A stretch of DNA of 64,000 bases from Carcharhinus amblyrhynchos (Eukaryota), in contig OZ336890.1 of NCBI GenBank assembly GCA_965287045.1, positions 40,672,001 to 40,736,000 of the forward strand. The letters are read 5' to 3'. How positions within the stretch are numbered: the stretch's first letter is position 1; every line of letters starts with the position of its first letter. A program made the position numbers. Shown here in pieces: positions 6,001-61,800 of this stretch.

Positions 6001-9000
6001 AGAGACTTCTTACAGGAGTCCAGGATACTCTCCAGATAATGAGGGACATTTACCCATGACAGACAGTCTCAGAGGTTGAACCCCAAGGAACCTGATGCAA
6101 ACTGCAAGACATTCAATGATCTGACATTAATGGTCAAGATCAGAGAATTCACCTTCAAGCATCATGTCCCAATCACTGTAACACTCGCCTCACATTTCCC
6201 TCAACACGTCACACCCCAGTTATGTAACTGACCAATAATCTGTCAATCACGACTCATAGCTCACATTCATAGCCTCATCTCATCCTTACACATTTAGCAC
6301 TGCTTCAAGTTTCACACCTACACCTCATATCTTGCACAAACTGACAGCTATTCAACCAAGATAGATATATCACCCAAATAGATTACGGCAAACTAATGGA
6401 CACAGTTTCCTACTTCTTCCTCCTGTCAGACAGACAGCTGCATAACTAGAGGTGGCAGGAACTAATTGGCAGGGGGCAGGCATGGCATGCTGATCATATT
6501 GGAGGGGACAGTGGTCGCCAGCGTTTGAATAACCATTGTTGAAGGTGCAGCAGGGCAGGAGCCACAGAAGTAGTGTTGCCAACTCTGGCTGTGTGGAATC
6601 CTGGAGATTTTGCCATCTGACTTCCTGCTTACAACCCAATAAGTTCAGTTGAGTTCAGTTTATTTATTTATCAGTGTCACAAGTAGGCTTACAGTAACAT
6701 TGCAATGAAATTACTGTGGAAATCCCCTGGTCGCCACACTACTTGCGACACTAACAAATAAACTAATATCTGCCTCCATTATAGCACTAAAAGAAGCTAC
6801 CCAAAGTCTGAATGCTGCCATGAAAACTCAGACTGAGGCCACACAAGGTCAATGGAAGCTCAAGTTGCTTCCACACAACCTGAACTTCATGACAGGTCAG
6901 ACTGTTTCCATCGTGGCTGCAGATACCATGTTCAAAGGGGCTTGTTATGGGGTAACCGCAGTTCAACAATCTGTCTTCCCACCGCTGACTAGGATTGCTG
7001 AGGTCGCGTCCTGGGACAATGGCAACAACTCCTTGGAGCTTCAATCAGCTGTTCTCTTTCAGGCCGGGTAACCTCTATTATATTACAATGAAGTATCCAA
7101 CGCGTGAAAGTTCCTGGCCATGGTCGCTTTTAAAACCTCTCAGCAGTGTCACCCTCTGTCTACTTGGAGGTTGTAGTTCCAGCTGCTGTAAGCGGTAGAT
7201 TGCAGTGAGAATGCCCTTGCTGAATTCTGACTTGCTGGCCAGGGTTTTGTTCAAGTGATTGGGCGGACGGGGTGTTTCCATCATTTGGAGAACCGGGGCG
7301 GTGGGGGCCCAGCATTTCTTCCATGGGGTTGGCTGAATGGTTTACAGGCCAGCGATGGGCCTTTCACACAATCAAGCCCCCAGTGTGATGGAGATCCCAC
7401 CCACAACAGCTAATTAGAGACTGGCACCTCTCCATGGCAGGCAGCGCCCCCAGGGGTAGTGGCTGCCGCCGGTAATGCTTCAAGACCCAGCCTAAGGATT
7501 GCCACTGGATCCCTGGATACAGGTAAGTGGGACAGAATGGGGGCCACAGGGAGGGAATCACCAGAGGAGTGTGTGGGGAGAATGGGTGCGGGGAATGGGT
7601 GGTGGACAGAAAGTTGCAGGCAAAAATGAATTGTAGGATTTTGTTGGGAGAACTTGGTCTTTCTAACTCACTTTTTGTCCTTTGCTGCCTGTACATTTTG
7701 CTGTTCAAAGGAAATGAAGCCACTAAATGAGATTTCTCACAGATAGTTCATTGCTTTGCACTTTACTCCTATTCTATGGTGGACATGTCACAGTTCCCGA
7801 GGTTCACCTTATGGGAGTCCTTAACCTTGACCTCTGCCTGCCTTGCAAGCCATGTCCAAGTTTAAAGTGTGAATATATGTGACCATTTTAGGGATTTTAT
7901 TGTCAGTCAAATGTACATTAAAGTTAGTTTATTTATTAGTCACAAGTAGGCTTACATTCACACTGCAATGAAGTTACTCATGTAATTTCATGAACACTCC
8001 ATCTGAGCTGGGTGCTGATGATGAATGTTCAGTTCCAGATGTTTCTGTTCTTTGAAGTAATTCAGTGTTAAGCACTCGGTCCTCCCATCTGAAGCCAGTG
8101 ATGCCCCAAGTGCATCACGTGAAGAGCCTAGCTGCCCAAAGCTTTATATAGCTGCAGTAAATAGACCATGTCTCACAGGCACATGAGAGGGTAGCTAGTA
8201 CCATAGCTTTGTACACAGCAATTGCCCTCACATGCCCTCCACCACCACCACCACCACCATCATACCCATTCTGGCAGACTTCATTAACTTCCACTCACTG
8301 TTCCAATAGAGATAGCAGAATTCCTGACACCCCGGGTGGACTTGGACCCCTGCTTCGAGCCCTCCACCCTCCTCTTTCTCTCCCTCTTCCCTCTTCTGGT
8401 GGCTTGTCCTGCTCAGCGTCATCTCTTCTCGTTCTCCCTGCCTTGCAACAGTACAAGTGGAATAGGCATTACTGCACCCATGTCTGGGAGCAAGTAGTTG
8501 TGCAGAATCCTGGAACTCAGGACAAAGTCATTCAGCAAGAGTAACGTCATTCCCTCTGGACTTTCGCAGGTTTAAAGAGCTGTGAAACCACCAAACACCA
8601 TTGCAGTTACAGCCACTGGAAATCAGTCAGCATCGAATCTGTAAGGAGCTGATGATCCTTTAATGATCACTGACTGGGGCTCCTTCCTGCTGTTGATGGT
8701 TTTTACAGTTGTACATACTTAAAACATAGCATCAGATGGCTTGTTGACAAAAAATAGTTGCATTGCTTGTGTCAGATTGGTGTTGCACACTGATTGACAT
8801 CCCTATCAGGCATCTATGCATGTTTATACATGTGCAATCAATATCGCCAACAAAATGATACCCAGTGCTTTTTCTCCAACATGTGTTGATGCCATTTTGG
8901 AGTCAAATCGGCACTTGCAACACCAAAAAAATGGCTGAAGAGTCAAATTTTATGGGCGACATGGTGGCATAGTGGTTAGCACTGCTGCCACACAACACCA

Positions 9001-58800: not shown

Positions 58801-61800
58801 ATTCAGTCTCAGGACTAGCAGAAGGGAAATTTAGGAGCGGCATTAAGAAATTAGTTCTTCACACATCAACACATGGACTGGAATCTTCTAGCCTCCAACA
58901 CCACCGGGATCTTCCAGTCCAGTCGAAAGTCAGTGGATTTTTGGCTGGACCACCGCATCCTCCATAGTGGACCTCAAATTCTGACCATAGAATGGACTTC
59001 CAGCTCCGGTAGTGGAGGCAAAAACCTTGGAACCATTTAAGAAACAATTGGATGCAGCAATAAGAGGACCTTAGAATCATTCTAAATGAATGGATTAAAA
59101 TTTCCCTCAGTAAGAAGTCTCACAACACCAGGTTAAAGTCCAATAGGTTTATTTGGTAGTAAATGCCACTAAACCTGTTGGACTTTAACCTGATGTTGTG
59201 AGACTTCTTGCTGTGTTTACCCCAGTCCAACGCCAGCATCTCCACATTACAATTTCCTCAGAAGAGATAGTCTGTGAGTGGGTGATTCACAGAATTTTTG
59301 TTTTCGATAGATATCAGATTGTGGTGCTTATCCTGTACAATGTAAGGTTACACTAACCTGTGTGTTTATCCACCCAAATTGGGATTGTCCCTGAACAGTC
59401 TGTCGGATGTTTTACATAGCTGGGCCCTAATCTACATTACCTCCTGATGGAATGTCTAGAAACAGCTGACACCTGTCAAATGGATATCAGAATCTTGGTC
59501 CCAAGATGGGGAGCACTTGAAAATCGAATTGTAACTGAACAAATGGAGCGAATTATCTTTTATCAAAGAGGGGGTTGGGTAAATAGTTAGCTAAAGGTGT
59601 AAGAAGCTGTTTTATCTTATCAACTGTCAGACAGAGGCAATTAGCTACTGGGGTGAAAAATAGCCTCATGCCTCATTTACCTTAAAGTTGTAAACATGTG
59701 TGGTCATTGACTGGAATGTTAATTTTAACTCTTAAGCTGCCAGCAGATTGAGGGAAATGTCCATCTTCTTAAATCGAGCAGTTTTCTAAGTCTTTAAATC
59801 ACGGAGAGATGTGGGCTATAACACTGAGAATGTCATTGAGATATTCCTGATATTTATGCAGCTTTATTAATGTGATAGTCAACTTAAAATATTAAAAATG
59901 AATGCCCAATTTCTCAAAAACCAAAAGGTAACCTTGTCTGATATTTTTCTTCATTTTTATTCTTTATCTTCCAATTTTGGAATGTAGACGAATTCATTTG
60001 TTATCCTGCCTCCCCTGAGATTTGGATAGTTAGAACTACTTGAACTGTTGCAGCCTTTGTGATAATTCCTCGCAGTGGTTAGCACTGCTGCCTCCCAGTG
60101 TCAGAGATCCGAGTTCAATTCCTGGCTTGGGCCGCTGTCTGTGTGGAGTTTGCACATTCTCCCCGTGTCTGCATGGGTTTCCTTTGGATGCTCTGGTTTC
60201 CTCCCACAGTCCAGAGATGTGCAAGTTAGATGCATTGGCCATGCTACTTTCTCCTTCAGTGTACCTGAACAGGCGCCGGAGTATGGCAACCTAGGGGATT
60301 TTTACAGTAACTTCATTGCAATATTAATGTAAGCCTACTTGTGACAATAAAGAAAATTTAACGTTCAGAATGGTTTGAGGAAGAGAATTCTCGGATATTG
60401 GTGGAGGAACAAATTTGGACACACACTTGCCACACTTGCATCTCGACGTTCATGATAATCACTCGGTACTGTAGATTGGAAATCTCATATTTTTAAACAC
60501 ATATTCTAACACATCGGCTTAGACGTTATGCTGAGGAAATGGTAACATTTGAGTGGTTTGAAATTCCTTCATTCATTATTTTAATAGCAGATTTAATTTA
60601 TTTAATATAAATAACACCACCAGTAGAATTGCAAACTAAAGCATTTCAGACGAATGTACTGAACGTTCACATGCTAATACTTCCAACTTCCGGTTGTCTT
60701 TTCAGTGCTTGAGCTTGTATGGGTCTTTTGTAAGTCCAGACAACAGCTAACAACTCTTATATGGCTCCAATTTCATTCCTTGTTCGTTTCTTGTGGGATG
60801 ATTTTTGGCCAGTGGCCAGCCTGCTACCCAAAACAGGATGAAAAGCGTGAAGAAACAGTTGTACCTCATTTTTTTGAGGGGAGGGGATCTCCCATGCCCA
60901 TCACCAGCACACTCCCCCACTCCAAAGATGATTACACCCTCTCTATGCCTCTCCCCAAGCTTCTTGAACCAGACCGACCACACCCCTCCTCACTCCCACC
61001 CCCGCACTTCCTTCCCACTCACTCCTCCCCACTCCTGCACTCACTAACGTCCTAAATCCCTCCTTGACAAGAGACGCTGGACTTAGAACATAGAACATTA
61101 CAGCGCAGAACAGGCCCTTCGGCCCACAATGTTGCGCCGACCAGTTTTTTTAAAAAAAACACTGACCCACAAATCTAAACCAATCCGTTTTCGTCCATAA
61201 ACCTATCCACGGATCTCTTAAACGCCCCCAAACTAGGCGCATTTACAACCGCAGCAGGCAGGGCATTCCAATCCCTCACCACCCTCTGGGTAAAGAACCT
61301 ACCCCTGACATCCGTCCTATAACTACCACCCCTTAATTTAAAGCCATGCCCCCTCGTGCTAGCATTCTCCATCCGAGGAAAAAGGCTATCACTATCCACC
61401 CTATCTAAACCTCTAATCATCTTATATGTTTCAATAAGATCCCCTCTTAGCCTCCTTCTTTCCAGCGAAAACAACCCCAAATCCCTCAGTCTCTCCTCAT
61501 ATGACCTCCCCTCCATACCAGGCAACATCCTGGTAAACCTCCTCTGCACCCTCTCCAAAGCCTCAACGTCCTTCCTGTAATGTGGGGACCAGAACTGCAC
61601 ACAGTACTCCAAGTGCGGCCGCACCAGAGTTGTGTACAGTTGCAACATGACGCTGCGACTCCTAAATTCAATCCCCCTACCAATAAACGCCAAGACACCG
61701 TATGCCTTCTTAACTACCTTATCTACTTGATTCCCAACCTTCAGGGATCTATGTACACATACACCTAGATCCCTCTGCTCCTCCACACTATTCAAAGTCC

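What the first reader, a model, noticed from the sequence alone, without database searches (positions are those of the whole stretch)
8954..59723. Window-wide pattern of local templated copy-paste events
Seen: about seven places where neighbouring sequence reappears 0-2 kb away. These are 9256 (12 nt, direct), 13810-13860 (patchwork of adjacent sequence), 31102-31256 (138 bp, direct), 37333-37627 (295 bp, inverted), 54265-54316 (51 bp, inverted), 57328/59426 (300 bp, inverted) and 58505-58519 (15 nt, inverted). In at least four of them the copy interrupts a recognisable repeat whose two halves stay colinear, so it is an insertion rather than a transposon TIR or an inversion breakpoint. Known: polymerase theta-mediated end joining and template-switch/MMBIR repair leave locally templated insertions, typically short. 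Inference: this lineage fixes unusually long templated insertions at high density, either from a distinctive germline repair pathway or because slow sequence evolution preserves the scars.
Basis: partly seen in the sequence, partly recalled or inferred. Interest (0 to 1): 0.7.

Follow-up and report, generated by a model that had tools for sequence, protein, structure and literature searches.

The report
Local duplications from DNA repair
Several short stretches of this repeat-rich, shark-like sequence were copied to spots a few hundred to two thousand bases away, most likely during DNA break repair or retroelement insertion, which is a process already described in other vertebrates.

Summary
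Six of the seven listed sites are real; the 12-nt match at 9256 is not above chance. Of 143 non-overlapping self-matches, 9 have no third copy in the window, and 6 of those 9 lie 268-1836 bp apart (P about 4e-6).

The sites are of several kinds:
- 31119-31894 is a 5'-truncated CR1-like LINE fragment abutted on both sides by a 138-nt direct repeat. This is a long target-site duplication, not a free templated insert.
- 36172/37333 (about 300 bp, 97-98%), 57328/59426 (about 300 bp, 93-95%) and 53915/54265 (49 bp) are inverted two-copy pairs. They have no TSD, no transposon features, and older decayed repeats between the arms. They fit the proximal repair-mediated duplications described in human, mouse, chicken and zebrafish (PMC2671141: mean 162 bp, maximum 619 bp, donor under 5 kb away).
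- 58505-58519 and 13785-13863 are short templated or snap-back insertions inside SINE and LINE copies.

About 300 bp is therefore not unusually long. A lineage-specific high rate cannot be tested here, because no eukaryotic genome collection was available. Genome-wide copy number, empty orthologous sites and read support stayed unchecked.

The parts
36172..36473 (.). Site 4, probable donor arm (clear homology 36183-36473)
   Evidence: 302 nt, 97% complementary to 37333-37634; 284/291 in the core. No other copy in the window at E<=1. ORFs on both strands have no credible homologue.
37333..37634 (.). Site 4, probable inserted inverted copy
   Evidence: It lies 22 nt after the tail of an old tRNA-type SINE. 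It lies directly before the 3' half of an old repeat, where 37697-37815 matches 15447-15574 (z 8.4, nhmmer E 1.5e-5). No TSD and no poly-A at its ends.
57328..57630 (.). Site 6, left arm
   Evidence: inverted copy of 59426-59723, 283/298, 10 transitions and 5 transversions. No other copy in the window. It begins at most 60 nt after a tRNA-type SINE copy at 56964-57267.
59426..59723 (.). Site 6, right arm
   Evidence: Same calls. Its flanks 59250-59425 and 59724-60070 have no strong repeat match in the window. Which arm is the donor is undecided.
53915..53963 (.). Site 5, left arm
   Evidence: 49 nt, 92% complementary to 54265-54313, 301 nt between the arms. No third copy. No TSD seen.
54265..54313 (.). 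Site 5, right arm
   Evidence: 45/51 when extended by 2 nt.
31119..31256 (+). Site 3, upstream copy of the 138-nt direct repeat (5' target-site duplication)
   Evidence: 131/138 to 31755-31894. Its last ~14 nt are the terminus of the SINE that follows the downstream copy, so the duplication came after that SINE.
31257..31754 (+). 5'-truncated CR1-like LINE 3' fragment
   Evidence: Matches LINE tails at 47274-47778 and 25399-25854. It ends in the same TTCTTATG-type units as those siblings. It abuts both repeat copies within 0-3 nt.
31755..31894 (+). Site 3, downstream copy of the direct repeat (3' target-site duplication)
58505..58519 (+). Site 7, 15-nt templated insertion in a SINE copy
   Evidence: Absent from all 6 siblings. 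Exact reverse complement of 57503-57517. The chance of such a match within 2 kb is about 7e-6. It is followed by 5 unmatched nt and a second ATGAC.
57503..57517 (-). Template of site 7, inside the left arm of site 6
   Evidence: The right-arm version at 59539-59552 (the 14 nt searched) differs at 2 positions, CG against TA, which dates site 7 after site 6.
13785..13863 (.). Site 2, snap-back-type imperfect palindrome in an old LINE tail
   Evidence: self-inverted match, 74% over 81 nt; about 40 extra columns against 4 of 5 siblings.
9256..9267 (+). Site 1, 12-nt repeat of 8957-8968 (not significant)
62743..62821 (.).
   Evidence: 81% over 79 nt, 268 nt apart, no third copy by blastn.
49229..49574 (+). 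Further old local direct pair, with 51112-51520
   Evidence: 251/316 aligned positions, about 1.9 kb start to start, no third copy by blastn.

Best explanation
The window is transposon-rich, non-coding sequence of an elasmobranch type. The listed sites are a mixed set of ordinary, already described mutational scars. They do not show one special process.

(1) The two ~300-bp inverted pairs, and probably the 49-bp one, are proximal repair-mediated duplications. A break was healed by copying a few hundred bases from a donor 0.3-1.8 kb away on the same chromosome and joining the copy in with little or no homology. The route would be synthesis-dependent strand annealing or microhomology-mediated template switching. 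The copying is inferred. The in-situ origin after the intervening repeats is shown by relative divergence.

(2) The 15-nt insert at 58505 and the palindrome at 13785-13863 are the short form of the same thing: templated end joining or snap-back synthesis.

(3) The 138-nt direct repeat at 31119/31755 is the target-site duplication of a 5'-truncated CR1-like LINE insertion. Its two nicks were 138 nt apart.

(4) The 12-nt match at 9256 is chance within a rearranged SINE.
For: Non-random proximity: 6 of 9 two-copy-only pairs lie within 268-1836 bp, and all 5 pairs of 80% identity or more are local.

The arms have no third copy in the window even at E<=1. They have no terminal repeats of their own, no poly-A and no TSD. 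They have no transposase or other Pfam match.

Relative age:
- Site 4 arms are 284/291 identical.
- The SINE between them is only 65-71% identical to its 4 siblings, which are 74-86% identical to each other.
- The repeats between the site 6 arms are 62-81% identical to their siblings, against 283/298 for the arms.
- So the duplications arose in place, after those repeats were already old.

The differences between copies are mostly substitutions, with 0-5 gap nt per pair. These are real diverged copies.

Site 7 is a gap in 6 of 6 siblings and has an exact 15-nt template 987 nt away.

Site 3: the LINE tail and the 5' truncation point touch the two repeat copies within 0-3 nt.

Literature:
- PMC2671141 (sections 6, 7, 12 and found passages read) describes 824 human proximal duplications. 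The donor is under 5 kb away, the mean length is 162 bp and the maximum 619 bp. Breakpoints show microhomology, filler or deletion. The same kind is reported in mouse, rat, dog, cow, chicken and zebrafish.
- PMC5223499 (passages) reports L1 target-site duplications over 100 bp as a minority class.
Against: No empty site and no genome-wide copy number could be obtained, so low-copy transposon families are not excluded.

For site 4 only the 3' half of the supposedly split repeat is significant. A restricted test found a weak match of the outside-left flank 36099-36126 to the same sibling repeat, reached by 6/500 shuffles. If real, that would favour insertion of the whole 36172-37634 block. A direct comparison of the two outside flanks gave nothing, with 368/500 shuffles reaching the score.

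Site 6 has TTAA at both outer ends, as a piggyBac-type element would.

Donor and acceptor are undecided for sites 5 and 6.

A 138-nt target-site duplication is far from typical. PMC4245944 (abstract in a search listing only) gives 15 bp for human L1 and 5 bp for zebrafish ZfL2-1.
Confidence: 0.55

Rival explanations
1. The inverted pairs are the terminal inverted repeats of low-copy non-autonomous DNA transposons. Alternatively they are two nearby insertions of one low-copy element by local hopping. Either way they would not be repair products.
For: Inverted arms 0.3-1.8 kb apart are the anatomy of such elements. TTAA lies at both outer ends of the site 6 pair. There is a weak colinear match of the left outside flank of site 4 to a sibling repeat, reached by 6/500 shuffles. 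Genome-wide copy number could not be checked.
Against: No TSD flanks sites 4 or 5. The TTAA of site 6 is inside the palindromic homology, so it proves nothing. The interiors are unrelated, much older repeats: the SINE is 65-71% identical to its siblings against 97-98% for the arms. There is no transposase remnant. The arms have no terminal repeats of their own. None of the arms recurs elsewhere in the 64 kb.
Confidence: 0.2
2. One reading: this lineage has a distinctive germline repair behaviour, or very slow decay, that fixes long templated insertions at a density far above other vertebrates.
For: The window holds three pairs of 49 bp or more at 88% identity or more, plus the LINE-flanking pair, in 64 kb. 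At the human pipeline density the expectation is about 0.017 per 64 kb, and P(>=3) is about 8e-7. That figure uses 824 events from PMC2671141 over 3.1 Gb; the genome size is my own figure. Pair identities run from 98% down to about 74%, as if events accumulated over a long time.
Against: This is one window, flagged because it shows the pattern. The human count comes from a strict pipeline that needs a split, annotated repeat, so densities are not comparable. The lengths are within the known range. No other genome could be scanned here.
Confidence: 0.2
3. The duplicated stretches are assembly artefacts, such as chimeric or fold-back reads or uncollapsed haplotypes.
For: Inverted and tandem local duplications are known assembly errors (own knowledge). 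Read support could not be examined.
Against: The copies differ by 2.4-12%, mostly substitutions, with few gap positions. The arms are separated by 0.3-1.8 kb of unique or repeat sequence, not joined head to head. The window has no N.
Confidence: 0.03

Closest known systems
[quoted passage not shown]
   Same: Two-copy sequence, with the donor 0.3-1.8 kb from the acceptor (66% of the paper's 1,136 duplicons lie under 3 kb apart). Length is within the reported range (mean 162, maximum 619 bp). No poly-A at the ends. At least one acceptor sits in or next to old repeats. The paper gives an example in opposite orientation to its donor (an ACSBG2 exon).
   Different: Here no empty site or consensus was available, so microhomology, filler and deletion at the junctions could not be scored. 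Cartilaginous fish were not among the ten genomes in that paper. The local density in this one window is far above the paper's per-genome figures. The paper's supplementary tables, which may list orientations, were not available.
LINE insertion by target-primed reverse transcription with an over-long target-site duplication (L1 cases over 100 bp, PMC5223499)
   Same: A 5'-truncated LINE with an intact 3' tail is flanked directly on both sides by a direct repeat of the target (31119-31894).
   Different: The element is CR1-like, not L1. 138 nt is far above the usual few to 30 nt. No report for CR1-type elements was looked up beyond search listings.
Short-range template switching and polymerase-theta-type templated insertions
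   Same: Site 7 is 15 nt copied in reverse from 987 nt away, followed by 5 unmatched nt and a 5-nt local repeat. Site 2 is an inverted copy next to its source. Both have the described signature (own knowledge; PMC7954356 seen as an abstract in a search listing only).
   Different: The ~300-bp pairs are longer than what these short-range processes usually leave.
Non-autonomous DNA transposons with long terminal inverted repeats
   Same: Inverted arms a few hundred bases long enclose 0.3-1.8 kb.
   Different: No TSD at sites 4 and 5. The interiors are unrelated older repeats. There is no second copy in the window and no transposase trace.

Membership tests
Proximal repair-mediated duplication (criteria of PMC2671141) | Inserted sequence of at least 50 bp | tested here: met
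   Site 4 is 291-302 nt and site 6 is 298-303 nt. Site 5 is borderline at 49-51 nt.
Proximal repair-mediated duplication (criteria of PMC2671141) | The inserted sequence occurs at only one other place in the genome | not testable with these tools
   Met within the 64-kb window, with no third copy at E<=1 and in the census. No eukaryotic genome collection was available.
Proximal repair-mediated duplication (criteria of PMC2671141) | Donor within 5 kb of the acceptor on the same chromosome | tested here: met
   The gaps are 859, 1795 and 301 nt.
Proximal repair-mediated duplication (criteria of PMC2671141) | The acceptor interrupts a transposable element whose two fragments are colinear in the family consensus | tested here: inconclusive
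   Site 4: the 3' half is significant (z 8.4, 0/200 shuffles) and the 5' half is not (z 1.5, 19/200). Only one diverged sibling is in the window. Sites 5 and 6 have no sibling to compare.
Proximal repair-mediated duplication (criteria of PMC2671141) | Breakpoints with microhomology, filler or small deletion; no poly-A/T and no retroelement-type TSD | tested here: inconclusive
   No poly-A/T and no TSD at the arm ends. Microhomology, filler and deletion need the empty site, which is not available.
Proximal repair-mediated duplication (criteria of PMC2671141) | Empty orthologous site in a related species | not testable with these tools
   No related genomes could be reached.
DNA transposon or MITE with terminal inverted repeats | Target-site duplication flanking the outer ends | tested here: not met
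   None at sites 4 and 5. At site 6, TTAA is part of the palindromic arm ends, so it is uninformative.
DNA transposon or MITE with terminal inverted repeats | Several copies with the same ends | not testable with these tools
   There is no further copy in the window. The rest of the genome was not searchable.
DNA transposon or MITE with terminal inverted repeats | Interior belongs to the element (its own sequence or later insertions), not older resident repeats | tested here: not met
   The spacer SINE of site 4 is 65-71% identical to its siblings against 97.6% between the arms. The spacer repeats of site 6 are 62-81% identical to siblings against 95% between the arms.
LINE insertion with target-site duplication (site 3) | Retroelement with the family's 3' end, 5'-truncated | tested here: met
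   The tail units match those of siblings at 47760 and 25850. The body matches 47274-47778 and 25399-25854. The sibling copy at 45780-47778 carries an RVT_1 ORF; the site 3 fragment itself holds only the 3' part.
LINE insertion with target-site duplication (site 3) | Direct repeats of target sequence abut both ends of the element | tested here: met
   31119-31256 ends at the LINE start, and 31755-31894 starts within 0-3 nt of the tail.
LINE insertion with target-site duplication (site 3) | Duplication length typical of the element | tested here: not met
   The duplication is 138 nt. Usual values are a few to 30 nt. Lengths over 100 bp are known only as a minority for L1 (PMC5223499).
Short templated insertion (site 7) | Extra bases relative to the uninterrupted sequence, identical to a nearby template | tested here: met
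   A gap in 6 of 6 siblings. The exact 15-nt template lies 987 nt away.

The most novel reading that the evidence does not exclude
Elasmobranch genomes carry proximal repair-mediated duplications at a density one to two orders of magnitude above the figures published for human. The breaks that seed them would not be random. In both ~300-bp cases one arm starts 22 nt, or at most 60 nt, after the 3' end of a copy of the same tRNA-type SINE family, and a palindromic hairpin repeat lies between the arms. This would point to retroelement-endonuclease nicks or palindrome-stalled forks as the source of the breaks.
Probability: 0.15. Interest if true: 0.6.

Novelty: new member of a known kind. Interest (0 to 1): 0.3.

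Why it matters
Local repair-mediated duplications are an under-counted source of small structural change. They can copy exons and regulatory elements. They have been surveyed in mammals, chicken and zebrafish but, as far as two literature searches showed, not in cartilaginous fish. If the density seen here held genome-wide, slowly evolving shark genomes would be a good archive for measuring the rate, length spectrum and break sources of this process. As it stands, this is an ordinary instance of known processes in one window.

Tried and rejected
- Coding exon in the site 4 arms. The arms carry a 59-codon ORF on one strand and a 92-codon ORF on the other. There was no Pfam or PDB match. A search among longer proteins found nothing. 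A scan of 1.84 billion representatives gave 2 hits. For the one re-checked by BLASTP, the E-value comes from summing about 32-bit matches to a tandem Ig-like repeat. Rejected as not coding.

- Colinearity of the repeat split by site 4. This was tried with a cheap-gap alignment, which was uninformative. It was then tried with piecewise alignments with shuffles and with nhmmer. Only the 3' half is supported.

- I recall a consensus of that repeat family from memory.

- A repeat split by the left arm of site 6. The sibling at 17227-17750 starts matching only 19 nt after the arm. No conclusion.

- An inverted snap-back next to the site 6 SINE end. Nothing convincing was found.

- Rfam gave no family at gathering score in the window.

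- Literature searches for sharks plus templated or local duplication returned only gene-family papers and PMC2671141.
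Full report
**Setting**

The window has no N and 43.5% G+C. At least 25% of it matches another part of the window. It holds several LINE reverse-transcriptase ORFs with RVT_1.

The 537-residue ORF at 45780-47393 was searched against named proteins. Its closest named relatives:
- elasmobranch proteins: Chiloscyllium punctatum 71%, Hypanus sabinus 61%, Mobula birostris 60%;
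- many bird and turtle entries at 42-57%.

Those bird and turtle lineages are ones where CR1 is the main LINE (PMC4316615, abstract and passages). The LINE tails end in TTCTTATG-type units. The octamer tail of CR1 elements is described in PMC4316615.

Rfam finds no family at gathering score. I saw no credible host exon.

A self-comparison by blastn gave 150 pairs, of which 143 do not overlap themselves. Nine of these have no third copy in the window.
- Six of the nine lie 268-1836 nt apart.
- The other three lie 12-40 kb apart and are only 73-78% identical.
- If placement were random, six or more of nine within 2 kb has P about 4e-6.
- The other two were not listed: 62743/63090 (inverted, 81%) and 49229-49574/51112-51520 (direct, 251/316).

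For the short sites the chance level matters:
- Exact 12-mers repeated within 2.1 kb: about 11 per orientation expected, 116 direct seen.
- Exact 15-mers: about 0.3 expected.

Site 1 (12 nt at 9256) is therefore not evidence of anything. It lies in a SINE whose parts are out of order, or in two partial SINEs side by side.

**Site 3 (31119-31894)**

The layout is repeat copy, then LINE fragment, then repeat copy.
- The LINE piece (31257-31754) starts inside the family's 3' region. It ends in the family's tail units, as do the siblings near 47760 and 25850.
- The upstream copy ends exactly where the LINE begins. The downstream copy begins within 0-3 nt of the tail.
- The last ~14 nt of both copies belong to the terminus of the SINE that follows the downstream copy. 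This is shown by nine SINE ends in the window. So the segment was duplicated after that SINE arrived.

A copy placed at random would have no reason to touch the LINE's 5' end while its source touches the 3' end. This is the anatomy of a target-site duplication, 138 nt long. Duplications over 100 bp are a known minority outcome for L1 (PMC5223499, passages). I did not find a statement for CR1-type elements.

**Sites 4 and 6 (about 300 bp, inverted)**

What the arms show:
- Identity is 284/291 for site 4 and 283/298 for site 6. The differences are mostly substitutions.
- No further copy occurs in the window even at E<=1.
- The arms have no terminal repeats of their own, no poly-A, no flanking duplication and no protein-family match.

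Open reading frames on both strands of the site 4 arm looked like an exon at first. No homologue supports this, apart from a summed weak match to a tandem Ig-like repeat protein.

The key argument against transposon ends is relative age.
- The tRNA-type SINE between the site 4 arms is 65-71% identical to its four siblings. Those siblings are 74-86% identical to each other.
- The repeats between the site 6 arms are 62-81% identical to theirs.
- These old residents lie inside the pair, so the second arm was made in place long after them.

For site 4 the arm at 37333-37634 is the likelier insert. It sits 22 nt after the SINE tail and directly before the 3' half of an old repeat (37697-37815 against 15447-15574, z 8.4).

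The 5' half of that repeat could not be shown with the single diverged sibling available (z 1.5). One restricted test gave a weak match of the outside-left flank to the same sibling, reached by 6/500 shuffles. That match would argue the other way, and I report it as unresolved. A direct comparison of the two outside flanks gave nothing.

For site 6, donor and acceptor are undecided. TTAA at both outer ends lies inside the palindromic homology, so it cannot serve as a duplication.

**Site 5 (49 nt, inverted, 301 nt apart)**

It has no third copy and no flanking duplication. It is either a small member of the same class or a short element. I lean to the former, with low confidence.

**Sites 7 and 2 (short)**

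*Site 7.* In an alignment of the SINE copy at 58400-58640 with six siblings, the 15 nt at 58505-58519 fall in a gap in all six. They equal the reverse complement of 57503-57517. The chance of such a match within 2 kb is about 7e-6.
- The insert is followed by five unmatched bases and a second ATGAC. This is the usual look of templated end joining (own knowledge).
- The two arms of site 6 differ at this spot: TA in the left arm, CG in the right.
- The insert carries the left-arm state. So it was probably copied, in reverse, from the left arm after the arms had diverged. This is an inference.

*Site 2.* 13785-13863 matches its own reverse complement at 74% over 81 nt. This LINE tail has about 40 extra columns against 4 of 5 siblings; the fifth sibling aligned poorly. 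It is an old snap-back-type inverted copy next to its source.

**Comparison with what is known**

Pace and co-workers (PMC2671141; outline, sections 6, 7 and 12, and passages read) searched for inserts of at least 50 bp that split repeats and occur at one other place.
- In human, 824 had the donor within 5 kb.
- The mean length was 162 bp and the maximum 619 bp.
- Breakpoints showed microhomology of 2-9 nt, filler of 1-68 nt or deletions of 1-15 nt.
- None of the 39 proximal cases they examined had a poly-A tail.
- They found the same class in four other primates, mouse, rat, dog, cow, chicken and zebrafish, at 0.08-0.65 per Mb of repeat DNA.
- They link it to the short local 'doublets' of Thomas et al.

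The ~300-bp pairs here fit that class in size, distance, copy number in the window and lack of retroelement marks. The defining tests that need an empty site or a genome-wide search could not be run. The paper's supplementary tables were not available, so I cannot say how often its cases are inverted. The text gives one inverted exon copy.

**Density**

At the human pipeline density, about 0.017 events are expected per 64 kb (the genome size is my own figure). Three or more would then be very unlikely.

That pipeline is strict, this window was flagged for the pattern, and slow substitution would keep old events visible. A real excess in this genome is possible. One window can neither show nor exclude it.

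**Verdict**

The pattern is real, but it is a mix of known processes. The lengths are within the published range. No special pathway is needed. Unchecked:
- copy number of the arms in the rest of the genome;
- orthologous empty sites;
- read support;
- any cross-species density comparison.

Noticed in passing
36941-37311 with 37333; 56964-57267 with 57328: In both ~300-bp pairs one arm starts just after the 3' end of a plus-strand copy of the same tRNA-type SINE family: 22 nt after the tail at site 4, and at most 60 nt after the last matched base at site 6. The family has 6 loci in the window. A post-hoc chance estimate for both events is about 5e-4.
   Followed up: partly
36625-36797 and 59108-59247: A copy of a palindromic hairpin repeat lies between the arms of both ~300-bp pairs. 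The repeat has 6 loci in the window. Its centre is about 265 nt from the nearer arm in each case. The post-hoc joint chance of one lying in both spacers is about 0.01.
   Followed up: partly
37616-37629 and 37721-37734: The outer end of the inserted arm of site 4 has an exact 14-nt inverted match 91 nt downstream, inside the old repeat. 12 of these nt also equal the start of the donor arm. About 0.02 such matches within 100 nt are expected in the window. I could not fit it into a simple repair path.
   Followed up: partly
Their nature is open.
   Followed up: partly
1-383 and 1467-1843: Direct copies at 85% of a repeat family that has further members at 18561, 42233 and 54348. These are family members side by side, not two-copy duplications. 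The first copy is cut by the window start.
   Followed up: no
11120-11640 and 30050-30610: Two blocks of about 500 nt of imperfect CA/TG-rich repeats. They generate long spurious ORFs.
   Followed up: no
36150-36428 (+) and 37378-37656 (-): The 92-codon ORF in the site 4 arms drew E 1.6e-14 against a 3688-residue protein. This arose only from 11 summed weak matches to its tandem Ig-like repeat. It is an example of how repeat proteins inflate scores.
   Followed up: yes
53053-53093 with 54005-54035 and 54242-54255: A 41-nt stretch about 1 kb upstream of site 5 matches one interior part of site 5 directly (71%) and another in reverse (14 nt exact). Both matches are at chance level for this window.
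   Followed up: partly
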